A DNA stretch of 52,500 bases, the filler included, from Sphacelaria rigidula (Eukaryota): NCBI GenBank assembly GCA_964200075.2. It is 4 parts of 4 records of this genome, joined end to end, with 100 filler letters (N's around TTAATTAATTAA, not from the genome) between each part and the next. Parts side by side here need not be neighbours in the genome. Positions count along the whole stretch, not along the records: positions 26,302 to 39,351 come from CAXNAA020003202.1; 3 more parts are not named here. The stretch is one strand, 5' to 3'. The notes under the pieces were generated by a model. It made no database searches and was not told the origin of the DNA. It saw nothing but the letters and a program-made list of their open reading frames with translations. Position numbers and translations under genes: made by a program. Positions 13,052 through 49,427 of the stretch are shown here, piece by piece. Every line of letters begins with the position of its first letter. The stretch's first letter is position 1.

Positions 13052-13151
13052 NNNNNNNNNNNNNNNNNNNNNNNNNNNNNNNNNNNNNNNNNNNNTTAAT
13101 TAATTAANNNNNNNNNNNNNNNNNNNNNNNNNNNNNNNNNNNNNNNNNNNN
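13052..13151. other. Artificial contig spacer (44N-TTAATTAATTAA-44N)
   Basis: Identical 100-bp construct occurs three times. TTAATTAATTAA gives stops in all six frames. Confidence 0.97.
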
Positions 13152-15637: not shown

Positions 15638-16837
15638 TTAAATAATAGTCACGACTCTGGCACCCTGCCCCAGCGGGCAAGGGCACGGGGACCGCCTCCG
15701 GGCGCCGCGTTTTTTGCCAGGCCATGTATCGACGCCGTAAACAGCGTGGTCGAACATGCAGCCGACCATCAGCTGTTGCAGGGTCGATGGCCACGATACC
15801 CCACCTATCGCCTGATTGAAGCAATGCCCGAACACCGCCTGGCGGAGGCCTGACGGCCAGACAACGGTGTCCAACGGCTGGTTGAAGTGATACCCGAATC
15901 GTATCCGCACAAGCGTGGACGGCCACACAACGCCGTGCACGGGTTGGTTGAAGTTGGCCCCGAACGTCAACCGCCGAAGGGTGCTTGGCCACTCCACGGC
16001 GCCGATGGGCTGATTGAATTGCCGGCCGAAGGACAGCTGCCGAAGGGCTGGCGGCCACGATACATCCGCACTGCTGATGGGTTGGTTGAAAGTGTCTCCG
16101 AAGGAGAGGTGCTGCAGGGAAGGCGGCCACTGGACGGCCGAAATCGCCTGGTTAAACTCGTACCCGAACGAGATCTTCCGCAGGGCAGACCCCGCCGGCC
16201 ACAGCACCCTATCGATCGGTTGGTTGAAGTACCACCCGAACGTGAGCGTCTGAAGCGACGGCGGCCACGTTACTTTTTCCACGGGACCGTTAAACGCGTC
16301 CCCGATGGATAGTTGCTGCAGCGATGCCGGCCACTTCACGCGATCGATCGGCTGGTTGAAAAACGCACCGAACGTCAACCGCTTCAGGCTGGCGGGCCAC
16401 ACCACCTTGTCGATCGGCTGATTACACGCGTCTCCAAACGTCAGCTCGCGCAGCGAGGCAGGCCACTTGACCGCCTCCACGTTCCGATCCAACCCTCCTC
16501 CCACAATAAAACATTCTACCCCCATCAGTCGACCGACGCAGCTCGACAGCACCTCAAGCGGAATCTTCCACGTTACAGTGCGCGGAAGCACAAGCGGCAC
16601 GCGGGTCGGCTTCTTCGACCTGCGCGTGTTGTGTATTGGCTTTGCGATCGGCGGAGGCGCGGGCGCCCACAAAGCTCGCGGCGTGCGGTCCAAAACTCGC
16701 ACGTGCAGCGTCCGGAACTTTCGGCAGGCTGTGCAAAAACTCAGCGACGCCAATTGGAGATCCTTAGTGGACATGAACGATCGATCGCCCCCGCAGGTCT
16801 GCTCTACGACAATGGTGAAGGCGTCCAAACATAGCAA
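15638..16837 (-). CDS. FNIP/IP22 (22-aa LRR-like) repeat protein; start codon uncertain
   Basis: About 11-12 tandem repeats of consensus LxxLxFGxxFNQPIxxVxWPxS in one open frame. N-terminal segment is loosely F-box-like. ORF starts at TTG. The upstream ATG at 16848 is out of frame; the first in-frame ATG gives MSTKDL. Confidence 0.85.
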   Translation of the reverse strand: MLCLDAFTIVVEQTCGGDRSFMSTKDLQLASLSFCTACRKFRTLHVRVLDRTPRALWAPAPPPIAKPIHNTRRSKKPTRVPLVLPRTVTWKIPLEVLSSCVGRLMGVECFIVGGGLDRNVEAVKWPASLRELTFGDACNQPIDKVVWPASLKRLTFGAFFNQPIDRVKWPASLQQLSIGDAFNGPVEKVTWPPSLQTLTFGWYFNQPIDRVLWPAGSALRKISFGYEFNQAISAVQWPPSLQHLSFGDTFNQPISSADVSWPPALRQLSFGRQFNQPIGAVEWPSTLRRLTFGANFNQPVHGVVWPSTLVRIRFGYHFNQPLDTVVWPSGLRQAVFGHCFNQAIGGVSWPSTLQQLMVGCMFDHAVYGVDTWPGKKRGARRRSPCPCPLGQGARVVTII

Positions 16838-21061: not shown

Positions 21062-23921
21062 TCACTGGCGCTCAATGAACGCCGACTCCATGTCGATGAT
21101 GTTGCGGTGTGCTTTCGATATCTTCCGCATTTTCTCGAGCGTGTCCTTGCTGTCGGTCACCCCCTCGTTGTCAAGGGTAAAGTATGCCCAACAGAAGTCC
21201 CGCGTGCGTCGTGCAAAGCGGCGTATTCGCTCCAGCGTGAGGAAAGTCTTCCCGCGTAGTGACCGCACTATGTTGCGGTGCAGATTCCTCGGGATTTCTT
21301 CATTGTTTTTGCGGCGATACACCTGTTTCGAGTTCTCCCAGGAATAGTCTATCCCGACGTCGGCAACTTCCCGATAAAACTTCGGCGACATCAGAAGGAT
21401 GTGTCCGCGGCTCTCGGCAACACTCTGCAGCGCACTCTTCTCCTGCTTGAAATCCGGCAAATTAGCGAGTACAGGGGTGGCGTTCATATCTGCAGGTACT
21501 TTATCCGACGTGAACATACCTGGCTTGCACAAGCCACGCTCTCACAACACTTGCTTGATGCCCTCGGGTGCCCCAATATAGCCCATGTCTACAACTTCTT
21601 CTCGCACTCCCTGTCACCACCTGCCTGTGAGCCCTGCCCCCCCCTCCCCCCCCCCCGACACCCGGCCTTTGGACGACTTGTCGCTCTTGCGCTGTATCCT
21701 CCTCTCGATCCGGGACTTAGGGGCGCCCCAGTCGTAAAACGGAGGCGGGTCATTCGTCGAAAATGACGATGTCTGCATCCCGCCCACTTTTGGCTTCGAC
21801 ACAACTGTGTCCACTGTGACCCCGCACAAAGTTCGTGCTCCAAGTCTCCCCGCCCAAGTGTATCTCCGCTTCTTCGCCCAGACAGCCATCGGTAATGTTC
21901 GTGTCACGCATTTTCCTTTGTTTCCCCTCCCCACTTCAAGTTCATGTTCGGCACATGAAGACCATCTTCTCGAAACTTGGCGTGCCGGGCCGAGTGGCCG
22001 ACCTCCATGACGATTTGCGTATCCTCAGTTGAGGCGCTTCGAGGCACTCCAGCACGTCCATCACCTAAGCCTCGAACTTCTCATAGCCCCAGTATCCTTC
22101 TTTGTTCTTCCCAGGCCGGAAGAATCTCACACCAGGGGTTCCCTTCAAGGCTGCGCGCCCCCGCTCCTCTCGGAAGGCATTAACACGCTCCAGCTCTGAT
22201 TTGGACAATGGCGGACCGAAATCATGTTTGTCTTGAAACGTTGACACCATCTCCCCCGCCCCTTCTGTCTTCTCCCTCATCCTGCGCACTCCCTAGACCA
22301 CCCACGTTCTTCACCGTAACGCATACGATTTGAAGTATGATTTGTCTTGCCCAGAGTGAAACACTCTTGACTTGCACTTACACGTGTCGGGCGCATGGTC
22401 GTACTCACAGGGAACAGCTGCGGCTGCACTGAAGCGAACGCTCGTACAAGCACCCGCTGTTCCCAACTGTCGGCGTAGCTCATCGTGCCGAGCGTCGGAG
22501 CCGTTGCCCAGGAATTCGACGTGGACCTCGATGTAGCTGATACCATTTACCTGGTTATATGTGTCGGCCCAGAACGCCTCCTCGCCCGTTTCGCGCATCT
22601 CCTCGAACGCGGCAAGCTCTTCCGGCGTCAGGTGATCCTTCCTCACCAAATACCAGCAGTGCTGCCGCAGTTGAAGTGTCCACCTCTTCCTCACGTACTC
22701 CTTACGGCTGGCGACAACGTTCGGCCTCTCCTTGCCATCGGTGTCGTAGGACTGCGTGTTTTGCTCATACTTGCATCTCAACTTCCGCATCCACACGTTC
22801 ACCGTGGACGTCGAAATAGGGAGGCCAAGACCATACTCCGTCAATTTCGCCATTCCTTCCCGCGCCAGTAGTCCGTTGTTGATGTAATTGTGGGTTGCAC
22901 GTGTCGGTACACGCTTCTGCTCCTTCAGCCAAGTCAGCAGTTGTAGCCGGAGATCGTCGGAGTTCGGGATCCAATCCCTCTCGTCCTTGCCCCTGCCGTC
23001 AACCTAGAACTAGCCGCCGAGGTCCCGGAACTGACGAAGCCATGCGATAATGGTGTGATGGTTGAGACCATGCACCATATCCTTCGATACACGTTCGGCT
23101 ATCAACAACAACTGCGAAGGCGTGCGTCGAATGAGCTCTGCATCATACAGTGCTTCGGTCACCACTTTATCCGCTGCCTTCTGCGCGGCTGGCGTGCGAG
23201 CACAATTGTGTTGGGCTTCTTTGACGCGTTTGAGGCGAGAGAGTTGCAATAGATCTCGGTCACGTATGTCGGCAATAACTCCTTTCACCGCTAAAGCCTG
23301 ACGTCTTGCGCATCGGAGTATGCCTTCGACCCATTCTCGTTCCCCTCTTCTTCCGTCGCAGACTGCCCCATGATATCCCTCACTGAATCGTCGATATCAT
23401 CAACGCAACTTAGTGAGGTGATCTCACCCAAAAGCGCGTTCTGTAGTCGTGCTAGTTGAGACTTCGTTCCCTCCACACGTGACTCCATTTCTCGCACACG
23501 CTTCCGAACGTAGCTTCGGCGCTTCTGAAATTCCTTGTCCACCTTTGGATTATTTTTCCGCCATACTCAGAGCCTCTGACATCATCCATTGTCTGCGTGT
23601 CACTTTATAACCCTGTGTCCGCTTTTTCCGAATCTCACGCCGTTGTACAGCATTGAGTCTACCGATAGCGTTCAGCGACTTTCCTGTGGAGAAGGTGGAG
23701 AGGGACACGAAAGGGCGAAAAATGTGTGCTTGAACTGCATGGGGAACTCGCCACTCTGAAGCCGCCCACAACATAACGGTCGTGTCGACGATGAAGCGAC
23801 GAGGGTTATTGGAAGCACAAATATCGAGAGGACCGTGCTGCACAAATGTATCGCGTATCGCACGGTGCACGAAGTGGAGGCCGTCAACTCTGCCAGTGAC
23901 ATTGTGCGCAGTTGTGCTCAA
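21062..23921 (-). pseudogene. Degenerate DDE transposase of the IS630/Tc1-mariner-like group
   Basis: Colinear motifs across broken frames: VNVWMRKLRCKY, HSGQDKSYFK (first D), PGKNKEGYW, VMEVGHSARHAK..DGLHVPNMNLKWGGEQRKMRDT (second D replaced by G), GIKQVL*ERG, PDFKQEKSALQ..ESRGH..LMSPKFY.EVADVGIDYSW..SK..YRR. Inclusion of the 23010-23921 ORFs is inferred from strand and adjacency only. Confidence 0.75.
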
Positions 23922-26201: not shown

Positions 26202-26301
26202 NNNNNNNNNNNNNNNNNNNNNNNNNNNNNNNNNNNNNNNNNNNNTTAATTAATTAANNNNNNNNNNNNNNNNNNNNNNNNNNNNNNNNNNNNNNNNNNN
26301 N
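26202..26301. other. Artificial contig spacer (44N-TTAATTAATTAA-44N)
   Basis: Same construct as 13052-13151. Confidence 0.97.
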
Positions 26302-28707
26302 CTCACCGCCCTCTACAGTCACTCTCCTTCACTACCATCAGTTCTCTGTTTTAAGAGGAAACTGCGAGTTCTGTTTTTCTTGGTCAAATAAAGCGCCCAT
26401 TCAACCATTTGTCTCACTGATTTATTCTGAAGCAGCGGAAGCAAGTGGCCTGATCAACCACGGTGCAACCTCTGCACACTACTGTTCGCTGAACAGTAGT
26501 TGGTCTGTCGTAAGGACAGTGCTACGATCACGAATTATTCCAACAGCTTTTGAGCCATCGATTGGCGACCACGTAGGTCTTCAGGTCATCAGCCTTCGCT
26601 TCGAGACTACGTCGGTCAGCACCAGCGAGGGGACTTCCCATCAAGGTCGTCACGGCAGCTAAAAATAAAAATTGAGAAGAGCCCTATATTCATACTTCTT
26701 CTTTGATCAAGGTTTTAGGTGAGATAAATTCTCACACATACTGTAACAAGATGAATAATCAAGGAGAGCTATATGTTGCACAGCTCATCAGGAGCATCAG
26801 GAAATTCGACGGAACAAATTCCTCGAATGGAAGCGCAGGACGCGCGCAATGATTTCCCTCACACATCCTGGGATTTCGGATATAATAAATGGAAGTAAAC
26901 GTCCCGCGGAAACTTTTGATGACGTGGAGCACACTCAAGGTGCCCAATCAGTTCCAGTTGCACGACCCAGGTCAAATCAACTCCGCCACACACCCACTCC
27001 CAAGGAACCGCGCCGTCTTCATCTGAAGAGGCAGCCGAAACAAGTGATCCAGTTGGGGACCCGCTGGCTGGCAGCGGAGCGGACTTCTCTTGGGAGGATA
27101 CACATCTAAGAGTTGTGGTGAACAGATCTGAAGTTGATGATTGGGATCGCTGCAACGAACAGTTGTTCAATATACTATACTTGACAACTACAGGCCCAGC
27201 GAGTAGTTTTCTTCTTCGCTTCGAGCCGAAGGGCCACGCAAGACGGGATGGCAAAAATGCATGGGAGGCACTGGTCGGTAAATACGAGGACTTTTCGAAG
27301 AAACGTCGGCGTATTCTTATGCGTCAGCTAGATAACATCAAGATGTCACCTGGCCAAGATCCTGACGTGTTTTTGACCAAGATCTATGAACTACGTGATC
27401 AGCTGGTGTACATGGGTGAGCCCATTTCAGATGATAGACTCACAGACATCGTGGTGGAAGGCTTGACAGATGAATACGACAGGATAAAGTATGATGCGGA
27501 GCGTGACCCAGACTTTGGCATCTCCGACATCAAAGTAACAATGAGGAACATGTATTCAAATTGCGTCGCACGCGGAATTTTGTCGAAGGGAATACGCGGC
27601 CGTGATTCCGCCATGATAGCAACCACACCTCTCGATTCATCTGCAACACCTACAAAATTTGCTGGGAAACGTTTTTCCTGCGGTCGGCCTGGACACCAAA
27701 GCCGAGACTGTCGCTCGAAACGACAACCGAATAGCAGGAGCAGGGCTGTAAAATGGTGCAGCCTGCATCGTACAGATAAACATGACAACTCCGATTGTAA
27801 GAGTCAAATCACTAACGGTGCTGCGCCGACGAGTAGCAGCAGGAACAACAACTACCAGAACAAGAAAAACCATCGCCGTCGTAACAACACGCGCAACAGC
27901 AACAACAACAACTCCGACTTCGGCACGAATAACACCATCAGCCATCCGAATCAAGCGAATACCGCCACCATGGACCCTGCGTCAACCACTTCTTTTAACT
28001 ACTGTTCCTTCCAATGATCAAACTCAAGACACCAGCGGATCTTCATCTTCAACATCGATTGAAATATGCGTGCCACCAAGTAGTGTGGGCTGTACCTTTT
28101 TTGCCGATCCTGTGGACAAGAACATGACTCAGCTATCGTCTTCGATATCATTCAAGATGGTACGCGACTCCGGGGCCAGTCATCACTACATCGACGATCA
28201 GCTACTTCCTAACATTGAAGAGGAGATTATGTGAAACTCGATCCTCCCATGAGAATTCTGACAGCAGGTCGTCATATCCTGAGCGGAACAGGAAAGGGAG
28301 TACTCCACTCCATCGTCTGTGATCAGCAGGGTAATCAACACTCCGTCCGTCTTCCGGCCATTATTGTTCCGCGTCTAGGGAAACATAATTTTTCACCAGT
28401 TGAAGCACTCACAAGAGGAGCTTCAACCGTGTTCTCCGTCGACTGCCACGTCGACCTTGGAAAATTCAATATTCCAATACACACCGACAACAACAACGGT
28501 ACGCTCCACTCCATCAACATGAAGATTGTTCGGGACTCAAGAAATGCCAAAACAAACACCGGGTCAGCATTTACGACTAAAGTAGTGTCCGGGGAATTTA
28601 TGGGGATTGGCACAGCATTATCAGCAGTAGTACCTCCCTCGGACATCAAATCGACAGGAGCAGTCAATATTGCCGAACCATCTTTGATATTTTTCGCAGA
28701 ACAGTGA
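26302..28707 (+). mobile_element. Ty1/Copia LTR retrotransposon, 5' fragment (LTR end, gag, protease); no recognisable integrase or RT
   Basis: Putative LTR end ...ccaaca (26545) followed by gcttttgagcc, resembling the GGTTATGAGCC-type Copia PBS. ATG at 26751 gives MNNQ...RKFDGTN/FLEWKRR across a frameshift. UBN2-like gag DGKNAWEALVGKY...EGLTDEYD. Knuckles FSCGRPGHQSRDC and WCSLHRTDKHDNSDC. Protease DSGASHHY at ~28166. Confidence 0.85.
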
Positions 28708-31620
28708 CAAGACCGTAAGATTCAACGAGTAGAACGAGAATGGGTATAAACTACAGTAAAACTAATAGATCTTCATGGGTCAAGCCTACATCTGCATATA
28801 ACAGAACGAGGGGAGAAAAGCCAAACTTTTACGAAAAGAACAAACGTGTCGACTTCAACGGACGAGGAGATTACAACAGAAGTTCAAGAAGATCGACAAC
28901 TTCACCGCAGAAGAATCGCGATCATCCTTCTCGTCACCGTCATCATTACCATCATCAACTACAGCACCAGCACCAGCCACAAAAGCATCAGCAGCCCATA
29001 AGGTACGACATCAGGGCAGTTTAGGCGTTATAGAAATAACAACAGAGTATGCCAGAGAAAAACTTGGCATCAAGAAAGCAGACTCATCATCAGTACTCCA
29101 GCAGGTGCTAGATACCCTACCTGCAGACGTAAAAAGCGGGGCAGTTCAACCTCCAAGGGACATCGCACGCAAAATGCGCGGTACAGAAAATCCCAACCAG
29201 CCAACACGATCACAACGAAAACAAATGAAGATCATCTGCTTTTTCAAGAAGCAACCATCCCAAGCGACTCCAACAAGCCCGAGAATAGCATCCACTATCA
29301 AGAAGCCAGTATCCAGAGACACGTCTTCAGCGCACTTCAGCATCATCACCAGAAACATCACTCACGTCGGAGCACAGGGCATACAACAGCATAGTCGCGT
29401 CAAGTGAACCTCCGGTGTTTCATTTGAAACGGAACACTTCGTGCGATTAGGTCGCCGCGCTTCACCCTTCAGGATTTCACACCACCACTACATACTGCAA
29501 CAACCACGACCGAGTGAGGGCACGGAATAAGGGGAGCAGCTATACTACGACACCGCCCAGAACGGACCGAATAAGATCAACGTACGCCACTACAACACCA
29601 CACATTGTTAGCCATAAAACGAAATGGTTGATCGGTATCAGGGCAATATAACACGGTACGTACTTGATTCGTATATATTACAATGTATGTACTGACTTCC
29701 GTATAGGATATATGTATTGACTTGCGTACAGTACAGAATCATAGGACTGCGTACAGGATCTTGATTTATTAAAATTACTGTGTGTCATGAGTACACCGTA
29801 TGTACTCAACTAGTTTACCAAGCTGTGTACAGAGGCTTATGTTTGCGCACTAGGGCAACATGCTTTGAGTCGAGCAGCAACTACAGTAGGATACGCAGTT
29901 GACACCGCTCCCGACGAGACTGTCTACGTAAGACAGAGATTCAGATTTATCAATCGTCTTTTAGTCATGAGTGCGCACTGTTCACAACATGAGTACTATA
30001 TCTGGATTTAAGGTTGTTGAGTACCAGAGTACATGTGCTTTGATATTTGCATGCCATGTGAAGTGCTGTATGTTGCGGGAAAACCTTTGAATTTATAGCA
30101 GGCACCAAAAGTGTGATGCCATGCAAATAGCCCGAGTACTTATGTCTAGGGATGAAATTCCACGAGTGACGACATTTCTTGAAGTAAACGGGTACACCTG
30201 TACGCATAATAAACAGACTGATTTCTACACATCAGCTCAGCGTATCTTGGATGATTCTTTGGTTTGATTTGAGCTGAGTTTTACCCATCAGTACAGCGTA
30301 CCTTGTAGCTGATTTTTTGCACATCAGTACAGTGTGCTTTGTGGTACTTCTTGTTCATTTGTCTAGTTCAAGATTTGATTGAAATTTCATTTGCTTATCA
30401 AGCTTTCACGTTTTGATGCGCACTCTTTCAGTGTTAGTTCGGGGTTTCTGACAGCCACTGCTACACCTACCTGTGTGATACATGGCCAGTGCGCTACAAT
30501 TTATGTGCTTCGTAAAGTGCCCTATTTCTTTCGTGAAGCGTGTTCGTCATTGCTAAAATGTACACGGATAGCGCTGAGAGGGATAAGCGGTAGCAGGGGG
30601 AGGGGAGGAAGTGTCCTTCTCAACTATTTGCATGCCGCGGGATGTTGTGGTTTGAGTCGGGACAGGGCATTTCAAAGTTGTGAGACATGAAAATACGGAA
30701 GCCTGAAAGATGACCGCTCAGACCCATCAATAGCCCTGAAGTTGATTTCACCTCACGGTTTATCGTCGCGCCACTTGACAACTCCGTTGTTGTACCACCT
30801 TGTGCGTAAGGTAGCTGTTGACCTTGTACCTTTTATCGCTATCCCTTTGCCCTGTGTCTACCGCCGCGTGGGCGTAGGTGTTAGAGGTCTAGCAGCTACG
30901 GTGATTAATCTGTGGCAACAACGGGGTACAAACGGGCTAGACTCGAAAGACAATAACGTTCTCTCATCGTGAGGGAATAAAGTGGGAAGGAAAATCTTGA
31001 AGTGCGAGTTACAACGGACGATACCCATGAGAGGTACGTACGATAGCGAACTACTACGTTTTTAGACAGGGAAACTCCCAATTCATGTAGCCGCATAAAC
31101 GAGCTAAGGAACACATATCCATCCGCTTCCACATGTGATGACACCCCGGTGTCAGCTCCACAATTGTGTAGTCGCAAGCTATACTATCGTTCCTGGTGAG
31201 CCTGCCATGGTGTCTCTGCAGCCGTCAGAAGTACCTGGGAGGAGGAGTTGACGGACAGGTGTGTTGAGAAAAGGTCCTTGGACGCTTCTCTGTGGTCGCG
31301 AAGGCTGACGCTGGTGGAGAATAAGCCGAGCAGACACGCTGCAATAGGAGTCAAGTCAGGAGATGGTGTTAAGAGTGCCGCTTGCGGGCAAAACAGTCCA
31401 GGACAACCCACCGTGCAGAACGGTCAGTAGAAGAGAGCAGCAGCGAGAGGTGGCTCTTCACCACGTCCCACTTTAGACCGAGATGTCGAAGACAGTACCA
31501 GCGACCTACATTGTCATCTACGACGCCGTTACACTTGTCCCATAACCACACACGAAGCACCACGTTACGAAGCGCTGACAAAATGGGCTCCAAAGCCTCA
31601 CCTCCTTACACTTTGTGAAA

Positions 31621-31976
31621 ATGTCACAGATACCGCTGAGCTAAACAGTCGACGCCGACTGTTTAGCTCAGTGGTGGTATCTTTGACATCATAACAAAAG
31701 ATAATTCCGGGGTTCGACTCTTCCCGCGATCATTCCTTCTAGACCAGAGATACTCGGGCTATTTTGTTAAGAAGAAGCACAGATATCCCGCTTGTACCAT
31801 GAATTTGACCAGGCGCGGCGCTGATGACAGCGGCAGCAACCCTGACACGAACACGAGTGTCCGATGGCTTAACAGTCGGAAGGGTCGCAGGATTAGCTTT
31901 TGCTAAGATGTCACAAATACCACCGAGCTAAACAGCCAGCGCTGACTGTTTAGCTCAGTGGTATATGTGACATCTT
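31621..31976. repeat. Pair of ~70-bp palindromes (31621-31689 and 31905-31976); the first overlaps a tRNA-like A-box/B-box
   Basis: atgtcaca-ataccrcygagctaaacag-[loop]-ctgtttagctcagtggtat-tgacat occurs twice. TAGCTCAGTGG at 31664-31674 and GGTTCGACTC at 31711-31720. Confidence 0.75.
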
Positions 31977-32600
31977 GAAAATGTGGACATGGTTCCTGCA
32001 ACCAAACGCACGCCTTACAGTCGCAAAACACAGTATCCGTGCTCCGTAGGCGGTGCGCAACTACATTTGCCAATTCAATCCTCCTCCCTGCTCATACGTC
32101 TGCCAGGACCACTTCGGGTAGTTACTACTCAGGAAGAACATCCGTTTGCGTGCCAAGTTTGGAGTGTCCTTCTGATTATGATCCTGTCCGCTCAAGATGC
32201 AATCGTAGGGAGAAATAGTCCAGCTTATCTCATATAATACTTGGCCAAAAAGGTACCTTAAGGCGCATGTTACGTCGGTCCACGCTGCGGTGGAATTGTT
32301 AATGACCTACAACAAGGTGTCCATATTTTGTGCATAATGCAGTAGGTAGAACAATATCACGTGACCGTCTTGTTCCATTACATACCCTGGGATGACTCAA
32401 TCGGAGCATGAGACGCCAAGATATGCGCCCCCTTGCCACTTGTGGTGTGGAAGAGAAGAGACGCGAGACGCTGTGCCTTGGCCCAGGCACAGCAACTCAC
32501 GTGAATTTGGGGGCTCTCTGAACGGACAAAACCTTTGGTCAGTTCGACTTGGGAGGCGAGACTACACCGAAGTATGCCCCCCCTTCTCATGACATCAACA

Positions 32601-32870
32601 TATATGGCACTTTCTACCATCGTCCCCCCCCCCCCCCCAAAGTGCCTGGTTTGGGGAGGCCGAATCTTCACGTAAATCGAAATGGGAAAAGCCGAGCACA
32701 ACGAGCAGCTGGGAATCTCCACGTTTGGGTTCGTTCTCGCCAATGTCCTCCATATGAGGCGCTTCATGCAGCCTGAACACAAACATCAGGCGATGTATGA
32801 CCATATTTTTATCAACACTTTTGGTCTGGTTTTGGGGGGGAGGGAGGGCTATCGTAGAAAGTAGTATATA
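32601..32870. mobile_element. MITE-like element with ~40-bp imperfect TIRs
   Basis: tatatggcactttctaccatcgtccccccc...aaa at the left end matches the reverse complement of tttggggggg agggagggctatcgtagaaagtagtatata at the right end. Confidence 0.55.
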
Positions 32871-34815
32871 GGCTTTTTGTGAGATTGCATGCTACCCGGA
32901 ACGGGTAAGTCAATGGTCGCCTCCACTATTGCACATGATGAAGCTGCCTGCTGCGCTGATCACACCGAGTTCCCAGGTGACCCAAGCCACTAGAAGCTGG
33001 GACAGAAGTGTCGTAGGGCACAGTTTCCTAGCTGTTGCAAATGAGCACAGGCTTTTTCTGTCCTCATACGAGTAACAGTACTCGTTATCTCTAAGGCTCC
33101 AGAACTACGGCGGTCGACCGCGAACCACGCTTGCGCTTGACAGAACCACTTGGAGACGCAGTGCCGTCGGCGTTCTCAGATTTTTCGATACTTCAAGGGT
33201 AACGTATTCGGCTCAAGAAAAGATGTATTGTTCAAGCTTCCTGACCATCGCTGAGTCTAAGTAGAACGGAACATTTAGTAAAATACACGAGGTTAGCAAA
33301 ATCCTCCGTGCATCGGCAAGAGGATACGCGCAGCTCACTTGATACTTCGTGTTCTGCGGTTGCAAGTTATGAACCAGGGAAACAGATTGGTTGATTCCTT
33401 GATACCACGGATTTGCCTCCAGCGACCGAGGAATTTGAAAGTGTGGCATAAATAGAATAGTCTGGAATTAGCTCGTCTGCCAGCTGCGTATCGTGCGGGA
33501 AGGAGCGAGTGCATGGCTACATTCACGGCACCCATTGAAGCTGACTGCGGTGATCACAACACGTTCCGAGGTGGTCCACATGCCAATAGCAGCTGGGAGA
33601 TATATATTGACCCACACAGTTGCAAAGCTGCTTCGGACAATACAAGCGCTTTCAGCCCGCGTGAAAAGTGTTCTTACTCCCAAACGCTGTGCAACCAAGG
33701 GGGCTCACCCTCGTCCTCGCTAGTAGTGATAGGACGACTTGAACACGCGATGTGGTCAGCGCACGACAGTTTCTTCGTGCGCCATGAAAATCACCTTCCG
33801 CTTCATCCCGTCACCTGGACACGCGATTGTGCAAGACAAGAGGAGTGGTTGACCATGATGTCGAAATATGTAGCCGGATGATACTATAGTAGAAAGCGCA
33901 AGTGAGTGTACTCGTGGTGTCCAGTCATTACAGTATGTGACGTCGCCATTTAATCATCTGGTCGTCGCCGGGTGGAGTAAGAAATATGGGCGACGGCCCT
34001 TCAGCACACGACGATCCACGCAAGCTGGCCATACCGTCCTTGGAGACGACTGATATGTCAATGGCGGCTAGGGGAGAGGCACTGATGGACACAGCAGTAT
34101 GCCTGTGTCAGATCGCGGGTGCTTCAGCCCACGCCAAATGTTGGCGCTGCAAACAGCTGTGCGCCTACGGCGGTCAACAACTGTCCCCGCTAGTATGGAC
34201 GCCACGACTGGAAACTATGATGCCATCGGACGCACGAATATACCTTGGGACGTCGTGCAAAATACGCTCCGCTCTATCCCGTCGGATCAACTCACACGAC
34301 GCCCGGGATACAATACATGGTCCCCTCGCAGGCCACTGAAACGACGGGAAACTAAAGGTAAAAACCACCTATGCAACAGCCAAGTTAACAATAACACTGT
34401 GTTTCGATGTAGCATACTCATCGATCCGCCTCCCAACTGGAGAAATATGATAAACGGCGACCCTCACGGCACACACCGAAGCTGACTGCGCTTATCATAT
34501 CGTGTATCCAGATAATCAACGTGCCAACACAAGCATGGACACAGACGTCGACCGACACAGTTACAATGATGTGTCGGAGTACGGGCGCTTTCCTTCTGGT
34601 GGAAAGAGCTCGGACTCCCAAACGCTGTGCCACTACGGCGGCCTACCGCCGTGCTCGCTGGTATCGACAGGACCACCTCGAAACACGATGTGGTCAGCGC
34701 ACGCAGGACTCTTCGTACGCCATAGGGATCACCTTCTGCTTGATCCCGTCACCTCGACACGTGGTGGTGTACGACAAGCGGTCGGGTGGTTCGGTGTTAC
34801 CACCTCCACACACAA

Positions 34816-35260
34816 AAACACGGGTTTCGACAAATTGGGGATGGATCTTTCATCGGGGATGAGAAACGGGGAAAAATCAAATATCCGTATCCACACTTGA
34901 TCTTCGAAATATGGGTCCGTTTCTTCACCTACTCATAGTTTTTGACAACTGCTACGCGCCATAGAGATTTGGGCTTCGACCACCAAACGTGTGGGGTCTT
35001 AGATCAGAAACCCATTTCGGGATCATTTTGACGTCCGTTCGGACACCCGGGATTCCCCTAAATGGGTTTCTGACCTAGAACCCCAACGTTTCCGTTATCG
35101 AAATTCAAATTTCAATGGCGTGTAGCAAGTGACAATAACTATGGGTAGGTGGAAAACAAGGACCATGTTTCGATTTTTTGGTGTGGATGCGAAAATTTCC
35201 ATTCTCCCGGTTTCTCATCCGCAATGCAGAATACATACCCGATTTGTAAGATGCCGTGTT
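34816..35260. mobile_element. ~445-bp fully palindromic MITE inserted in an array unit
   Basis: Ends aacacgg...ccgtgtt. Nested inverted pairs gatgagaaacggg/cccggtttctcatc, cacctactcatagtt/aactatgggtaggtg, cagaaacccattt/aaatgggtttctg. Splits the unit motif cacacacaa|tattactacatgac, with CAA present on both sides. Confidence 0.85.
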
Positions 35261-37451
35261 CAAGACTACTATATGACAAGAGTCAGGCCGACCAAGGTGT
35301 AGGGAGCCCTCTACGAGTCATCCAGCAAAACCCGATAGGTCGACGAGCGATGTCTTGTCGTGTACAGTGCAGAAGCGCACATTCACTCGTCGTATGGCGT
35401 GTCATGCGGGGACGACTAAGTCGACGGCGACCCTCACGGCACACACCGAAGCTGACTGCGCTGATTATATCGTGTTCCGAGGCGGCCCACCTGCCAAGAC
35501 CAGCTGGGACACAGACGTCGACCGACACAGTTACAAAGCTGGTTCGGAGTACGGGCGCTTTCCATCCGCGTGGAAAGGGCTCGGACTCCCAAACGCTGTG
35601 CCACTACGGCTGCCTACCCCTGGGCTCGCTGGTATCGACAGGACCACCTGCAAACACGATGTGGTCAACGCAACGCAGGACTCCTTGAACGCCATAGGGA
35701 TCACCTTCGGCTTGATCCCGTCACCTCGACACGCGGTGGTGTACGACAAAGGGTCGGCTGGTTCGGTGTTACCACCTCCACACACAATATTACTACATGA
35801 CAAGAGTCGGGTCAACCAAGGCAACGCGCACATTCACTCGCCGCATGGCGTGTCGTGCGGACCGGACCAAGTCGACGGCGACCCTCACGGCACACACCGA
35901 AGCTGACTGCGCTCATCATATCGTGTGTCCAAGTGATCAACGTGCCAACACCAGCTGGGACACAGACGTCGACCGACACAGTTACAAAGCTGTTTCGGAG
36001 CAAGGGTGCTTTTCATCCGCGTGGGAAGGGCTCGGACTTTCAAACGCTGTGCCACTACGGCGGCCTACCCCCGGGCTCGCTGGTATCGACAGGACCACCT
36101 CGAAACACGATGAGGTCAGCGCACGCAGGACTCTTCGTACGCCATAGGGATCGCCTTCTGCTTGATCCCGTCACCTCGACACGCGGTGGTGTACGACAAG
36201 GGGTCGCGCGGTTCGGTGTTACCACCTCCACACACAATATTACTACATGACAACAGTCAGGTCGACCACGGTGGCGGGAGTCCTCTACGAATCACCCTGA
36301 AACGCACCGGTGAGTCGACGCGCCATGTCTAGTCGTGTACAGTGTCCGACGTGCCCATTTACTCGCCGCGTGGCAGGTCGTGCGAAACCGGACCAAGTCG
36401 ACGGCGACCCTCACGGCACACACCGAAGCTGACTGCGCTGATCATATCGTGTGTCCAGATGATCAACGTGCCGACACAAGCATGGACACAGACGTCGACC
36501 GACACAGTTACAGAGCTGTTTCGGAGCAAGGGTGCTCTTCCTCCGCGTGGGAAGGGCTCGAACTCCCAAACGCTGTGCCACTACGGCGGCCTACCCCCGT
36601 GCTCGCTGGTATCGACAGGAACATCTCGAAACACGGTGTGGTCAGCGCACGCAGGACCCTTCGTACGCCATGGGGATCACCTTCTGCTTGATCCCGTCAC
36701 CTCGATACGCGATGGTGTACAACAAGGGGTCGCGCGGTTCGGTGTTACCACCTCCACACACAATACTACTACATGACAAGAGTATGGTCGACCGAAGTGC
36801 AGGGAGCCCTTGACGAATCACGCTTAGTCGCACCGGTGACCCGATGCGCGATGTCTTGTCGTGTACAGTGTCCGACGTGCCCATTCACTCGCCGCATGGC
36901 GTGTCGTGCGGACCGGACCAAGTCCACGGCGACCCTCACGGCACACATCGAAGCTGACTGCGCTTATCATATCGCGTGTCCAGATAATCAACGAGCCAAC
37001 ACCAGCTGGGACACAGACATCGACCGACACAGTCACAAAGCTGTTTCGGAGCACGGGCGCGTTCCATCCGCGTGGGAGGGGCTCGGACTCCCAAACGCTG
37101 TGCCACTACGGCGGTCTACCCCCGTGCTCGCTGGTATCGACAGGACCACCTCGAAACACGATGTGGTCAGCGCACGCAGGACTCTTCGTACGCCATAGGG
37201 ATCACCTTCTGCTTGATCCCGTCACCTCGACACGCGGTGGTGTACGACAAGGGGTCGCGTGGTTCGGTGTTACCACCTCCACACACAATATTACTACATG
37301 ACAACAGTCAGGTCGACCACGGTGGCGGGAGTCCTCTACGAATCACCCTGAAACGCGCCGGTGAGTCGACCCGCAGTGTCCAGTCGTGTACAGTGTCCGA
37401 TGCGCCCATTCACTCGCCGCATGGCGTGTCGTGCGGACCGGACCAAGTCGA

Positions 37452-37498
37452 NNNNNNNNNNNNNNNNNNNNNNNNNNNNNNNNNNNNNNNNNNNNNNN
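37452..37498. other. Assembly gap (47 N) inside the tandem array
   Basis: N run without linker. Sequence on both sides covers the same part of the unit, so true copy number is unresolved. Confidence 0.95.
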
Positions 37499-38424
37499 GC
37501 AAATGTCCAGTCGTGTACAGTGTCCGATGCGCCCATTCACTCGCCGCATGGCGTGTCGTGCGGACCGGACCAAGTCGACGGCGACCCTCACGGCACACAC
37601 CGAAGCTGACTGCGCTGATCATATCGTGTGTCCAGATAATCAACGTGCCAACACCAGCTGGGACACAGACGGCGACCGACACAGTTACAAAGCTGTTTCG
37701 GAGTACGGGCGCTTTCCTTCTGGTGGAAAGGGCTCGGACTCCCAAACGCTGTGCCACTACGGCGGCCTACCCCCGTGCTCGCTGGTATCGACAGGACCAC
37801 CTCGAAACACGATGTGGTCAGCGCACGCAGGACTCTTCGTACGCCATAGGGATCACCTTCTGCTTGATCCCGTCACCTCGACACGCGGTGGTGTACGACA
37901 AGGGGTCGCGTGGTTCGGTGTTACCACCTCCACACACAATATTACTACATGACAACAGTCAGGTCGACCACGGTGGCGGGAGTCCTCTACGAATCACCCT
38001 GAAACGCACCGGTGAGTCGACCCGCAGTGTCCAGTCGTGTACAGTGTCCGATGCGCCCATTCACTCGCCGCATGGCGTGTCGTGCGGACCGGACCAAGTC
38101 GACGGCGACCCTCACGGCACACACCGAAGCTGACTGCGCTGATCATATCGTGTTCCGATGCGGCTCACCTGCCATGACCAGCTTGGACACAGACGTCGAC
38201 CGACACAGTTACAAAGCTGTTGCGAAGTACAGGCGCTTTCCTTCTGGTGGAAAGGGCTCGGCCAAACGCTGTGCCACTACGGCGGCCTACCCCCGTGCTC
38301 GCTGGTATCGACAGGACCACCTCGAAACACGATGTGGTCAGCACACGCAGGACTCTTCGTACGCCCTCTGCTCGATCCCGTCACCTCGACACGCGGTGGG
38401 TGTCTTGCAATGCGTGAGAGGACC

Positions 38425-38597
38425 GCGTGCTCATAGGACCGCATCGGAATATGAACATCCTTATGGTGAGGGTTAGGGTCGGGGTTAGTGTTTGGGTTGT
38501 GGTCAGGGGCGTGCTACCTGCAGGGACTGACCCGATTGGTTTCGAAAAACGTCGATCCTGGGGTGTTTCGAACTACGGTGCAGTCCTCTCAGCACGC
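38425..38597. mobile_element. Small MITE-like element containing degenerate telomere-like (TTAGGG) repeats
   Basis: Left end gcgtgctcataggaccgcatcg matches the reverse complement of right end cggtgcagtcctctcagcacgc. Internal gtgagggttagggtcggggttagtgtttgggttg at ~38467-38499. Confidence 0.65.
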
Positions 38598-39170
38598 TAT
38601 TCCCTCACGCATTACAGTATGACACGATATCGTCGTGTATGGTGCCAAAATACACCTACAAATTGTTTCAGACACCATCCATAAATGTTTTCGTGGTGTC
38701 CAGTCGTTACAATAGACGATGTGCTGTCTTACCGTCAGATCTTGCGTCACCCGACAATGAGCATGTAGGGGTAGTCCTTGGGACGTATGACGAAGCTACC
38801 CGCGCCGATCCCATCATCTGTGAAGGGTCCCCACATGCCAGAAGCAGCTCGGAAAGAGGCACTGACGGGCACAGCAATATGGTTGTTTCAGGGCACGAAT
38901 GTTTGAGCAAAATTCCGACGTTCAGATGTCTAAAATTCGCCAAATTAGTAAGTATATCGGATTGAAACCAAGTTTGGATGTAATTCCCACCACCATTCAA
39001 TAGGGTTGGAAATCGCACTAAGTTCCATATTCGTAACACCAAAAAGACATCTGACAACAAATTGTGCGAATTGAGGCTTAACTCCGAGATGAGGCTCAAG
39101 CCTAAGACAGTGCTTTCCTGATACTTTCAGCAATGGTGCCCAATGACGTTTTTCTCGGCCTAATGCCCCT

Positions 39171-39351
39171 CGATCGCCTTGATACTTTTTCAGCGCAATT
39201 CACCAACTTTTTGAGCTTACAGCGCTGACCAAAACCGTCATTTCCCCCCCCCTTTTTTGAGGGGAGTAATATCAGGGAAAATGACGGTTTCGGTCAGCGC
39301 TGTAAGCTCACAGAGTCGGCGAATTGCGCTGAAGAAGTATCTACGCGATCG
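39171..39351. repeat. Long inverted repeat (~75-bp arms) running into a contig end
   Basis: cgatcgc...tgagcttacagcgctgaccaaaaccgtcatttccc pairs with gggaaaatgacggtttcggtcagcgctgtaagctca...gcgatcg. Confidence 0.8.
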
Positions 39352-39451
39352 NNNNNNNNNNNNNNNNNNNNNNNNNNNNNNNNNNNNNNNNNNNNTTAAT
39401 TAATTAANNNNNNNNNNNNNNNNNNNNNNNNNNNNNNNNNNNNNNNNNNNN
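39352..39451. other. Artificial contig spacer (44N-TTAATTAATTAA-44N)
   Basis: Same construct as 13052-13151. Confidence 0.97.
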
Positions 39452-46928: not shown

Positions 46929-47210
46929 ATGCCTGCTTCATGCACTCGCACGGGTTGAACCACAACGGCATTATAGGCCGTAGCGAGTAAGCGGGAAGAA
47001 AAAAGAGGCGGAATTCTTCGCCGTATACGAGTGGGCGGGAAGAGTCGATGAAGTAAGCAGATGGTGCGCGTGGAGGGCTGCTCCACTTACTTCAAGTAGA
47101 GCCGGTGGCAAGAAGGCAGAGTTCTGCGCCACACACATCCGAGCGGGGATGGTCAATGTAGTACGCACAAGGTGCGGGGAGAAGAGCTGACAAGATTCCC
47201 CTCGATCGGT
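46929..47210 (+). pseudogene. Decayed 5' repeats of the EsV-1-7 gene
   Basis: ATG at 46929 reads MPASCTRTG*TTTAL*AV..., then KEAEFFAVYEWAGRVDEVSRWC, EGCST, and KKAEFCATHIRAGMVNVVRTRCGEKS* in shifting frames. This is two further repeat units with stops and frameshifts. Confidence 0.7.
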
Positions 47211-49427
47211 GCAGCCGGTAGCAGGAAGGCGGAGTTCCGCGCCACACACGCCCGAGCGGGCATGGTCGATTTGGTGAACAAGTGGTGCACAGAAGAGGGC
47301 TGTTCTAGACGAGCATCGTTCGGTGCAGCCGGTAGCAGGACGGCGGAGTCCTGCGCCAGGCACACTCGAGCGAACATGGTGAATGTAGTACGCACTATGT
47401 GCGGCGAGGAGGGCTGCTCCACGCAAGCATCGTTCGGTGCAGCCAGCGGCAGCAAGGCGACGTACTGCGCCACACACGCGCGAGCGAGCATGGTCTATGT
47501 AGTGAGCAAGCAGTGCGCAGAAGAGGGCTGTTCCAAATCCCCATCGTTTGGTGCAGCCGCCGGCAGGAAGGCGGAGTTCTGCGCCACACACGCTCGAGCG
47601 GGCATGTTCAATGTGACAAGCAAGCGGTGCAGCGAGGAAGGCTGCTCTAAACAGCCATCGTTCGGTGCAGCGAATGGCAGGAAGGCGGTGTTCTGTGCCA
47701 CACATGCGCGAGCGGGCATGATTAATGTGGTGAACAAGCGTTGCAGCGAGGAGGGCTGCTTTATACGACCATCGTTTGGTGCAGTCGGTGGCAGCAAGGC
47801 TGAGTACTGCGCCACACACGCCCGAGCGGGCATGATCGACTGGTTCAATAAGCGGTGCGTAGAAAAGGGGTGTTCCAAACGAGCATCGTTCGGTGCAGCC
47901 GGTACCAGGAAGGCGGAATTCTGCGCCACACACGCCCGAGCGGACATGGTCAATGTAGTACGCAGTATGTGCGGCGAGGAGGGCTGCTTCACGCATGCAT
48001 TGTTTGGTGCAGCCGGTGGCAGGAAGGCGGAGTTCTGCGCCACACATGCCAGAGCGGGCATGATCGATGCGACAAGAAAGCAGTGCGGCGAAGAGGGCTG
48101 CTACAAATACCCTTCATTCGGTGCAGCCGGTAGCAGGACGGCGGAGTACTGCGCTGCACACATCCGCTCTGGCATGATCGATGTGAGAAGCAGGCGGTGC
48201 AGCCAGGAGGGCTGCTCCACGCAAGCATCGCGCGGTGCACCCGGTACCAAGAAGGCGGCGTACTGCGCCATTCACTCCCTAGCGAGCATGGTCTGTGTAG
48301 CAGGCACGATGTGTGGCGAGGAGGGCTGCTCTAGACGACCATCGTTCGGCGCAGCTGAAGGTAGCAAGGCGGAGTTTTGCGCCACACACGCCGGAGCGGG
48401 CATGGTCAATGTGAGAAGCAGGCGTTGCGGTCAGGAGGGCTGCTCTAAACAGCCATCGTTCGGTGCAGCGAATGGCAGGAAGGCGGTGTTCTGTGCCACA
48501 CATGCGCGAGCGGGCATGATTGATGTGAGAAGCAGGCGGTGCAGCGAGGAGGGCTGCTTTATACGACCATCATTCGGGGCAGCCGGTGGCAGCAAGGCTG
48601 AGTACTGCGCCACACACGCCCGAGCGGGCATGGTCAATGTAGTACACACGAGGTGCGGCGAGGAGGGGTGCTCTACACGACCATCGTTCGGTGCAGCCGA
48701 CGGCAGGAAGGCGGAGTTCTGCGCCACACACGCCCGCGTAGGGATGATCTTCATGCACGGCAATGGACGTGCCTCGCAGCGCTGTTCGAAACGGGTGCCG
48801 GAGCACCGGGGTACCTACCATCAAGTTGCACATCGCTTGACCCTGGCGTCTGATGCCGCAGGACATATCCGAGGGAAAAAACGCCCGAATGATGACTCAA
48901 CCGTAGGAGAGACTGGCATCGGTATCGACGGACAAGGTAAACGATCAAGCCATCCGTCGGATGCCGGTCCTACGACAAACGATAGTGGGTGTAACGCTGA
49001 TTCTCGCCAGACCTCGTGTGCCGTTAGTGCTGGGCGACCGGGTGCGAATTCTTTGGCCACCTTGCCTGCCGTCTCGGGACAGCCCCCCGGCGCGGCGGCA
49101 GTAAATTGTGTTTCTTCTGGTGGGATGGTGACGCGCGTGAAAGTGAACATGGAAACGACTATTGCGCCTGCGCGAGTCGATGAGGGGTCCACAAGTAGCT
49201 ACCTGCCTACTGCGCAATTCAGTAGCTGCGATGGCATGGCCCTTGGCTCCCGCAGCACGACCAGAAACGGGAGCGTGGACTGCAGTATCACCGATAGAAA
49301 GGACACAAAACGGCTACGCCGGACGGCACGGGTGAAGTCACCATCCGATGTGGCCGCTGGGGATGATGTGAAATCTGCAAAGGAGGAAACCGATGTGAAG
49401 TTCGAATTGAATGTGTCTGGTGTCTGA
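47172..49427 (+). CDS. EsV-1-7 cysteine-rich repeat protein (38-aa C-x4-C...C-x2-H repeats) with a low-complexity C-terminal tail; true start uncertain
   Basis: 13 complete repeats plus 1 partial repeat of CxEEGCxxxxSFGAAxxxKAEFCATHARAGMxxV at an exact 114-bp period in one uninterrupted ORF. This matches the EsV-1-7 motif known from Ectocarpus siliculosus virus-1 and brown algae. Confidence 0.9.
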   Translation: MRGEELTRFPSIGAAGSRKAEFRATHARAGMVDLVNKWCTEEGCSRRASFGAAGSRTAESCARHTRANMVNVVRTMCGEEGCSTQASFGAASGSKATYCATHARASMVYVVSKQCAEEGCSKSPSFGAAAGRKAEFCATHARAGMFNVTSKRCSEEGCSKQPSFGAANGRKAVFCATHARAGMINVVNKRCSEEGCFIRPSFGAVGGSKAEYCATHARAGMIDWFNKRCVEKGCSKRASFGAAGTRKAEFCATHARADMVNVVRSMCGEEGCFTHALFGAAGGRKAEFCATHARAGMIDATRKQCGEEGCYKYPSFGAAGSRTAEYCAAHIRSGMIDVRSRRCSQEGCSTQASRGAPGTKKAAYCAIHSLASMVCVAGTMCGEEGCSRRPSFGAAEGSKAEFCATHAGAGMVNVRSRRCGQEGCSKQPSFGAANGRKAVFCATHARAGMIDVRSRRCSEEGCFIRPSFGAAGGSKAEYCATHARAGMVNVVHTRCGEEGCSTRPSFGAADGRKAEFCATHARVGMIFMHGNGRASQRCSKRVPEHRGTYHQVAHRLTLASDAAGHIRGKKRPNDDSTVGETGIGIDGQGKRSSHPSDAGPTTNDSGCNADSRQTSCAVSAGRPGANSLATLPAVSGQPPGAAAVNCVSSGGMVTRVKVNMETTIAPARVDEGSTSSYLPTAQFSSCDGMALGSRSTTRNGSVDCSITDRKDTKRLRRTARVKSPSDVAAGDDVKSAKEETDVKFELNVSGV

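What the first reader, a model, noticed from the sequence alone, without database searches (positions are those of the whole stretch)
34455..38399. Tandem array of ~400-nt imperfect hairpins: candidate small-RNA precursor cluster
Seen: each 524-bp unit folds back on itself. The apex is ctttcca-tccgcg-tggaaag (35558-35577). Outward pairs are ggagtacgggc/gctcggactcc, cctgccaagaccagc/gctggtatcgacagg, tgcgctgatcatatcgtgtt/aacacgatgtggtcagcgca, ggaccaag/cttgatcc, gcgtgtcg/cgacacgc and cttgtcgt/acgacaag, followed by a ~100-120-nt spacer. The two arms differ from each other far more than units differ from each other, with dispersed mismatches and G:U-compatible changes but colinear register. At least 7 apices are present. 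The unit length is not a multiple of 3 and the ORFs are not conserved, so it is non-coding. Established: brown algal miRNAs come from long fold-back precursors. Inference: an amplified polycistronic hairpin-RNA/miRNA locus, or a satellite born from an ancient fold-back element.
Basis: partly seen in the sequence, partly recalled or inferred. Interest (0 to 1): 0.75.

Follow-up and report, generated by a model that had tools for sequence, protein, structure and literature searches.

The report
Amplified array of gene-derived hairpins
In what is likely a brown alga, a 524-base unit that folds back on itself is repeated head-to-tail, probably 15-40 times; one arm looks like a remnant of a protein-coding gene, and the array likely makes hairpin RNA that would be cut into silencing small RNAs, though no RNA has been shown.

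Summary
The fold-back array is real and larger than reported. Eleven copies span 32.9-38.9 kb: seven young (85-96% identical) and four old edge copies (50-70%). Contig depth suggests about 16-33 near-identical units, collapsed in the assembly. The arms are about 63% complementary (z 10-16 in the young copies tested) and come from one inversion older than all the duplications.

Four signals point to function. The minus strand folds better, and G:U wobbles favour it (24:9 in the main unit; neighbouring MITEs 33:45). The young units and copy B evolved more slowly than the three copies that lost or lack the fold-back.

Against function: covariation is weak, no source or target gene was found, and transcription and small RNAs are untested. 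The best reading is a gene-derived hairpin-RNA/siRNA array like Drosophila hp-CG4068 (0.4). Rivals are an inert satellite (0.33) and repeated exons with intronic antisense copies (0.15). A strict miRNA cluster or a MITE-derived satellite fits poorly.

The parts
32898..33214 (-). Old copy A, both arms, fold-back no longer significant; frameshift and stop in the codon-like frame
   Evidence: nhmmer E 4e-28; 55-61% to U; arm z 1.1
33444..33899 (-). Old copy B, fold-back still detectable, codon-like frame open
   Evidence: 65-70% to U; arm z 9.5; RNA fold z only -1.2
33918..34283 (-). Old copy C, fold-back no longer significant, stop in codon-like frame
   Evidence: nhmmer E 2e-21; arm z 1.0
34452..34815 (-). 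Young unit U1 (outer left arm missing); its spacer resumes at 35261-35325
34817..35260 (.). High-copy MITE-like fold-back inserted in the spacer after U1; a 3-bp CAA duplication appears to flank it (read by eye)
   Evidence: inverted arms of 205 nt, 72%; very high depth in runs; junctions printed
35350..35821 (-). Young unit U2 (holds the apex at 35558-35577)
35823..36323 (-). Young unit U3 (shortened junction with U2; spacing 451)
36325..36850 (-). Young unit U4
36851..37375 (-). Young unit U5
   Evidence: RNA fold z -1.7 on plus, -4.4 on minus
37377..37498 (.). Start of a further unit followed by a 47-N gap, the likely site of the collapsed copies (inferred)
37503..38026 (-). Young unit U6, the majority type; the high-depth contigs differ from it at one base (37731)
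   Evidence: depth 2759 vs 72-94 single-copy in X1; self-closing 554-bp contig in X4
37545..37895 (-). Predicted colinear hairpin of U6: 5' arm about 37721-37895, 3' arm about 37545-37715; 135 pairs, longest helix 13
   Evidence: -187 kcal/mol on minus vs -155 on plus
37591..37698 (-). Codon-like core of the left arm (about 35 codons), with excess change at third positions; no known protein relative
   Evidence: searches
38028..38399 (-). Young unit U7, truncated by a MITE-like fold-back at about 38404-38618
38680..38910 (-). Old copy D, left arm only, two stops in the codon-like frame
   Evidence: nhmmer E 5.7e-10

Best explanation
The locus is a head-to-tail array of 524-bp fold-back units that likely arose from one old inverted duplication of a probable protein-coding fragment, and it is likely transcribed from the minus strand into chained hairpins of about 350 nt that Dicer would cut into small interfering RNAs. 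Shown: the array, the fold-back, left and right arms forming two separate clades, depth-based amplification, a minus-strand G:U bias, faster change in copies A, C and D, and third-position excess in the left arm only. Inferred: (1) the inversion put an antisense copy 5' of a sense fragment on the minus strand; (2) selection kept the duplex in the U/B line while the edge copies A, C and D decayed; (3) unequal crossing-over recently amplified one unit type, which would raise small-RNA dose; (4) guides from the 5' arm would be antisense to the parent coding family and would silence it or a foreign relative through Argonaute. The target is not identified.
For: Minus-strand fold z is -2.9 to -7.8 in 7 of 7 young units and beats the plus strand in 6 of 7. 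Wobble counts favour the minus strand in 10 of 10 copies, which are not independent. U6 gives 24:9 against 33:45 in four neighbouring MITE-like fold-backs (Fisher p 0.004). Relative-rate tests put more change on A, C or D than on U6 or B in 17 of 17 triplets, 12 with p<0.05, and A and C are the copies that lost the fold-back. The right arm differs between U6 and B at 40/167 sites against 26/57 at left-arm third positions (p 0.004). The left-arm three-base pattern survives a scan over windows and phases (p 0.005-0.055 in 8 of 8 left-arm tests, 7 below 0.05), while the right arm shows none (p 0.29, 0.47). An Argonaute (Piwi-domain) gene is present in the genome. Drosophila has tandem hpRNA arrays with variable copy number and gene-derived arms (PMC10317233). 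Ectocarpus has 65 extended palindromic loci that give multiple small RNAs (PMC4513859).
Against: Covariation is weak. There are 5 doubly changed pairs against 1.9 +/- 1.2 (9/500 shuffles) on a structure derived from the same sequences. Cis-versus-trans pairing is 9:4 for U6-B and 18:19 for A-C, and paired columns do not co-vary in conservation (rho 0.03). Among U1-U7, variants that break Watson-Crick pairs are common. U6 and B have changed equally since they split (5 of 5 triplets not significant), yet B no longer folds better than shuffles (z -1.2). No source or target gene was found in the own genome or in protein collections. The codon pattern lies in the arm that would be the passenger on a minus-strand RNA, not the guide. 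U1 folds better on plus by z-score. The RNase III search found no Dicer domain (it matches exon by exon in a fragmented genome).
Confidence: 0.4

Rival explanations
1. An inert satellite. An old inverted duplication of a gene fragment, perhaps once functional, was caught in a tandem unit. Unequal crossing-over homogenised the centre and let the edges drift, and nothing is made from it today.
For: The copies are near-identical at the centre (one contig carries most of the depth) and diverged at both edges, the usual satellite pattern (recalled). The neighbourhood is rich in TEs and MITEs, with MITE insertions into the array. Covariation is weak and pair-breaking variants are common among young copies. 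No target was found. One stray 160-bp fragment lies elsewhere.
Against: Neutral concerted evolution should not slow a lineage, yet U and B are closer than A, C and D to the opposite arm and to the other copies. The wobble bias is absent from the neighbouring DNA-level fold-backs. Biased conversion that 'freezes' satellites (recalled) or an earlier function could still produce both signals.
Confidence: 0.33
2. Each unit holds one short exon of an unrecognised repeat-protein gene on the minus strand, plus an inverted intronic copy of it that pairs with the exon in the pre-mRNA. This would resemble the repeated LRR exons and inverted intronic copies of brown-algal ROCO genes.
For: Third-position excess is confined to a core of about 105 nt in the left arm: minimum changes 0.63/0.83/1.20 by codon position, none beyond it. 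The core frame is open in U1-U7 and B and broken in A, C and D. The reading strand matches the wobble strand. An AG precedes the core in 4 of 5 lineages and a GT follows it in 5 of 5 (read from the alignment). Inverted intronic exon copies are documented in Ectocarpus (PMC3341825).
Against: The candidate donor is unlike four real donors from this genome's Argonaute gene, and the acceptor is only 45-55% pyrimidine. The peptide has no relative and its codon composition is unlike two real genes of the window. First positions vary less than second. Young copies show no third-position excess (11/7/14). No Pfam hit in 101 of 101 flanking ORFs of 62 aa or more.
Confidence: 0.15
3. A canonical miRNA cluster: each hairpin yields one precise 21-nt miRNA/miRNA* duplex.
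For: Hairpins are colinear, and 208 of 330 21-mers in U6 have 17 or more paired bases on the minus strand. Some brown-algal miRNA clusters arose by local duplication (PMC5381526).
Against: The fold-back is about twice the 170-183-nt mean, and known clusters are mostly pairs. No 21-nt block stands out in conservation or pairing. No Rfam match lies in the array. Extended hairpins were excluded from the validated sets by their authors.
Confidence: 0.09
4. A satellite made of tandem MITE or fold-back transposon copies.
For: Several MITE-like fold-backs lie within and beside the array.
Against: The unit has no dispersed full copies; the only match outside the array is one fragment cut through the right arm. 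The genuine MITEs nearby are very high-copy. A spacer of about 120-170 bp lies outside the inverted arms.
Confidence: 0.03

Closest known systems
Drosophila hairpin-RNA (hpRNA) clusters hp-CG4068 and hp-tHMG-cluster (PMC10317233; passages read)
   Same: Head-to-tail local hairpins in tens of copies (20 in D. melanogaster, 9-14 in sister species; 13 in the tHMG cluster). Arms derive from gene fragments and copy number changes quickly.
   Different: No homology is expected, and the lineage is unrelated. Those loci have Dcr-2-dependent 21-nt reads and identified targets, whereas here neither is shown. The arms here are only about 63% complementary.
Ectocarpus 'weak candidate' small-RNA loci in extended palindromes (PMC4513859; parts 2-4 of 9 and passages read)
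   Same: Hairpin regions of several hundred bases, in brown algae, giving several small RNAs.
   Different: Not described there as tandem arrays or as gene-derived in the parts read. Their sequences are in a supplementary figure I could not see, so homology is untested.
Validated brown-algal miRNA loci (PMC4513859; PMC5381526, parts 2-3 of 6 read)
   Same: Long imperfect fold-backs.
   Different: Mean length 170-183 nt, 75% inside genes, almost all single, and no coding-gene origin detected. This array differs in length, copy number and apparent origin; whether it lies inside a gene is not known.
ROCO LRR-exon arrays with inverted intronic exon copies (PMC3341825; passages read)
   Same: Brown-algal tandem modules with a coding-like core and an opposite-strand copy, plus inactivated copies.
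   Different: The core here is not an LRR or TPR and has poor splice signals. No host gene was found, and the inverted copy sits at a fixed place in every unit.
Complex satellite DNA with an internal inverted repeat (general class, recalled)
   Same: Homogeneous centre, diverged edges, variable copy number, collapse in short-read assembly.
   Different: Strand-biased wobble pairs, unequal rates between copies and codon-like variation are not expected of a neutral satellite.

Membership tests
hpRNA / endo-siRNA locus | Long intramolecular hairpin from one strand | tested here: met
   Predicted only: 135 colinear pairs, z to -7.8 on minus
hpRNA / endo-siRNA locus | Transcribed as a single-strand precursor | not testable with these tools
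   No run on record as RNA holds the stretch
hpRNA / endo-siRNA locus | Dicer-dependent small RNAs of about 21 nt from the duplex | not testable with these tools
   No small-RNA reads available; Piwi gene present, RNase III domain not found
hpRNA / endo-siRNA locus | Arms derived from, and complementary to, a target gene or TE | tested here: inconclusive
   Codon-like variation in one arm, but no source found
hpRNA / endo-siRNA locus | Structure conserved by compensatory change | tested here: inconclusive
   5 vs 1.9 expected; cis:trans 9:4 to 18:19
brown-algal miRNA | [quoted passage not shown] | tested here: met
   299 of 330 21-mers of U6 on minus; not discriminating
brown-algal miRNA | miRNA and miRNA* reads, 2-nt overhangs, precise 5' end | not testable with these tools
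   No small-RNA data
brown-algal miRNA | A distinct conserved miRNA/miRNA* block | tested here: not met
   Sliding 21- and 25-nt windows show no block that stands out on both arms
satellite DNA | Head-to-tail array of homogenised units | tested here: met
satellite DNA | Neutral, strand-symmetric change | tested here: not met
   Rate differences, wobble bias, three-base pattern
MITE | Dispersed high-copy insertions with terminal inverted repeats and target-site duplication | tested here: not met
   One 160-bp fragment outside the array; the search counts are lower bounds
repeated-exon gene (ROCO-like) | Frame-preserving exon with good splice sites inside a host gene | tested here: inconclusive
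   A 96-nt AG..GT-bounded stretch exists by eye, but the donor is poor and no host gene was found

The most novel reading that the evidence does not exclude
A brown alga has independently evolved a Drosophila-style hairpin-RNA cluster. A captured coding fragment and its inverted copy were kept as an RNA duplex while neighbouring copies decayed, then amplified to tens of copies whose number differs between samples. This would be a dosage-tuned silencing locus aimed at a gene family or invader not found in this assembly, and the first gene-derived small-RNA hairpin array that I could find reported for this lineage (searches).
Probability: 0.3. Interest if true: 0.75.

Novelty: new variant of a known kind. 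Interest (0 to 1): 0.5.

Why it matters
Two studies of brown-algal small-RNA loci found few clusters and no origin from coding genes (PMC4513859, PMC5381526). A gene-derived hairpin array in tens of copies would be a counter-example. It would parallel the fly hpRNA clusters, some of which police genetic conflicts. The locus is easy to test: one small-RNA library decides between the main readings, and the graded old copies give a built-in record of how such a hairpin is born, kept and lost. If it is silent, it is a modest satellite with a fossil gene fragment.

Tried and rejected
Expression: no RNA holder was listed. Three runs of the same species label, guessed to be RNA, left the array units without cover while MITE-like repeats were covered. 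The tool's own caveats make this no evidence either way, and PMC10317233 notes that RNA-seq under-represents hairpin arms.

Rfam: 4 matches in 30-42 kb, all on the unrelated fold-back at 39.2 kb and all below gathering score. Tandem Repeats Finder missed the array because its period limit is 500.

Plus-strand peptide frame: I first suspected it. It had no relative and no synonymous excess, so I dropped it.

Minus-strand peptide: no candidate or no hit. The 3 hits of the 1.84-billion search are short matches in repetitive low-complexity ORFs. The Atlas gave no usable hit. Viral contigs: 5 pattern matches, none confirmed. Metagenomes: 117 loci matched a 20-nt pattern, none extending beyond chance (best E 0.007). 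Weak own-genome hits L035, L036 and L038 were not confirmed.

FNIP or EsV-1-7 genes of the window as sources: no tblastn hit below E 0.1 outside the array. Resemblances to RING, SWIM or MULE cysteine motifs were recalled only and found no support in Pfam. A Helitron origin was considered from memory; no conserved termini were seen. Earlier findings: three look-ups, nothing returned. Pfam scan of flanking ORFs covered 28.8-33.45, 38.4-39.35 and 39.46-47.15 kb, not 17-26 kb (only three ORFs there were scanned).
Full report
Setting. The window is eukaryotic and rich in repeats. It holds LTR-retrotransposon RT/RNase H/integrase and copia-type gag remnants, an FNIP-repeat gene and an EsV-1-7-repeat gene (5 of 15 ORFs hit). 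The array lies on contig C3202 of a 244-Mb, 27,214-contig assembly. No Pfam family hit 101 of 101 stop-free ORFs of 62 aa or more in the flanks scanned.

Observation. All 13 quoted motifs are present and the apex is at 35558. There are seven young units, U1-U7, 85-96% identical. A profile search adds three older full copies on the left (A, B, C) and a left-arm-only copy on the right (D), 50-70% identical to U. A MITE-like element splits the spacer after U1 and another truncates U7. The only relative outside the array is one 160-bp fragment, L009, 81% identical (these searches give lower bounds). In four runs from three samples of one study, single contigs of the U6 type have 33, 30, 24 and 16 times the depth of neighbouring unique contigs (ranges 13-38). 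One 554-bp contig closes on itself at 524 bp. So the assembly probably collapses tens of near-identical units. Depth is a rough guide, X1 and X2 are one sample, and that sample may be the assembly's source.

Fold-back. Left arm against reverse-complemented right arm scores z 10-16 in the five young copies tested, 9.5 in B, and about 1 in A and C. In a tree of all 21 arms, left and right arms form two clades (100/100) and the right arms share the same small deletions. One inversion therefore preceded every duplication. The minus strand folds into one colinear stem (U6: 135 pairs, -187 kcal/mol, against 95 pairs and -155 on plus). Its z-score is -2.9 to -7.8 in U1-U7 and better than plus in 6 of 7; U1 is the exception, and B is not significant on either strand (25 shuffles each). 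Two adjacent units folded together keep mostly local hairpins (349 of 376 pairs).

Signs of selection. Transition mismatches between arms are G:U on the minus strand more often than on plus in 10 of 10 copies (U6 24:9, U2 23:15, A 23:17). Single-copy binomial p values run from 0.017 to 0.44, and the copies share ancestry. Four neighbouring MITE-like fold-backs give 33:45 (Fisher p 0.004 against U6). Using the opposite arm as outgroup, A, C or D carry more change than U6 or B in 17 of 17 triplets (12 with p<0.05; for example 49 vs 11), while U6 and B do not differ in 5 of 5. U is also closer to C than A is, on both arms, which argues for slow change rather than arm-to-arm conversion.

Against selection on pairing: direct covariation is weak. 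One search gives 5 doubly changed pairs against 1.9 expected, on a structure taken from the same sequences. The four-point cis:trans counts are 9:4 (U6-B), 15:7 (U6-A) and 18:19 (A-C) among 8 pairs examined. Conservation of paired columns is uncorrelated, and many young variants break pairs.

Coding trace. Differences among left arms, and between left and right arm, cluster at every third base. Of the two frames sharing that third position, the plus one has conserved stops. The minus one is open over about 35 codons in U1-U7 and B and broken in A, C and D. Synonymous excess in that frame has p<0.05 in 4 of 10 comparisons involving a left arm (best 0.003; U2-B 0.40). Across five lineages the core shows 0.63/0.83/1.20 minimum changes by codon position, and the right arm shows none. 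After correcting for the choice of window and phase, p is 0.005-0.034 with a U copy included and 0.044-0.055 without. The pattern stops at the end of the core and is absent among young copies (11/7/14). No protein relative was found and no parent gene in the own genome. Codon composition and the candidate splice donor are unlike real genes of this genome. I read this as probable coding ancestry, not as a working exon.

Mechanism. The reading strand of the coding trace and the strand favoured by wobble pairs are the same. The simplest functional account is a minus-strand RNA of chained hairpins, each made of an antisense copy (5' arm) and a sense gene fragment (3' arm). These would be diced to small RNAs against the parent family, with dose raised by recent amplification (0.4). 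Every step from transcription onward is inferred. It is awkward for this account that the codon pattern lies in the would-be passenger arm and that no target is found. An inert satellite carrying fossil signals (0.33) explains the homogeneous centre, diverged edges and weak covariation, but not easily the rate differences. Repeated exons with intronic antisense copies (0.15) explain the one-arm codon pattern best but lack splice signals and a host gene. A strict miRNA cluster (0.09) and a MITE satellite (0.03) fit poorly.

Comparison with what is known. It would work like the Drosophila tandem hpRNA clusters: hp-CG4068 has 20, 9, 14 and 10 copies in four species, and the tHMG cluster has 13 gene-derived hairpins (PMC10317233; 12 of 21 passages seen). 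Membership is not established, because transcripts, Dicer-dependent reads and a target are untested or missing. For brown algae, PMC4513859 (parts 2-4 of 9 and passages) and PMC5381526 (parts 2-3 of 6) report mean fold-backs of 170 and 183 nt, few and small clusters, and no coding-gene origin. The first also reports 65 weak loci in extended palindromes, whose sequences are in a supplementary figure I did not see and which could include a relative. PMC3341825 (passages) documents inverted intronic exon copies in ROCO genes. PMC12477816 (passages) reports 21-nt small RNAs on TEs and does not contain 'hairpin'; bioRxiv 10.1101/2024.02.19.579948 (passages) contains neither 'miRNA' nor 'hairpin'. 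Six literature searches (other papers seen only as listings) showed no tandem hairpin array in a brown alga. The library lacks most subscription journals. Satellite edge divergence and 'frozen' satellites are recalled, not looked up.

Verdict. The feature is real and richer than first described: an amplified, gene-derived fold-back array with moderate evidence of past or present RNA-level constraint and no expression evidence. New variant of a known kind; interest 0.5.

Noticed in passing
window 34817-35260, 38404-38618, 39054-39351, 32600-32872: Four different high-copy MITE-like fold-backs in and around the array, with depth up to about 10^4-10^6 in a DNA-like run. The one at 39191-39331 gives the only sizeable Rfam score (MIR5062, 53 bits, gathering 140), probably because it is a near-perfect inverted repeat.
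   Followed up: partly
window 31609-31675 and 31899-31985: Two related short palindromic elements of 64-70 bp (84% alike), 287 bp apart.
   Followed up: no
L009:1501-1672 (G000:C2721:10092-10263): A lone 160-bp fragment of the unit (outer right arm plus spacer, 81% identical) on another contig, cut mid-arm.
   Followed up: partly
window 35465-35500 and 38143-38178: U2 and U7 share a left-arm patch that resembles old copy B more than the other young units do, and U1 and U4 share another patch. This suggests patchwork gene conversion among units.
   Followed up: partly
window 47172-49427: Intronless 751-aa ORF with 14 EsV-1-7 cysteine-rich repeats on a 114-bp tandem period; a degenerate repeat seems to lie just upstream (about 47060-47170).
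   Followed up: no
window 15638-16837 (minus): FNIP-repeat ORF with at least 6 repeats and no intron in the repeat region.
   Followed up: partly
window 8454-11451 and 27115-28017: Fragmented LTR-retrotransposon remnants: RT, RNase H and integrase at 8.4-11.5 kb, and copia-type gag with a zinc knuckle at 27.1-28.0 kb.
   Followed up: no
window 21062-23500 (minus): Several broken ORFs of 150-180 aa with no Pfam hit in the ones scanned; possibly a decayed transposase-like gene.
   Followed up: no
window 13052-13151, 26202-26301, 39352-39451: Contig joins written as 44 N, a 12-base palindromic linker and 44 N, at a regular 13,150-bp spacing; adjacency across them is a scaffolding product.
   Followed up: no
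L182 (G000:C32, about 32280): One intron of the Argonaute gene appears to start with GC rather than GT (read by eye).
   Followed up: no
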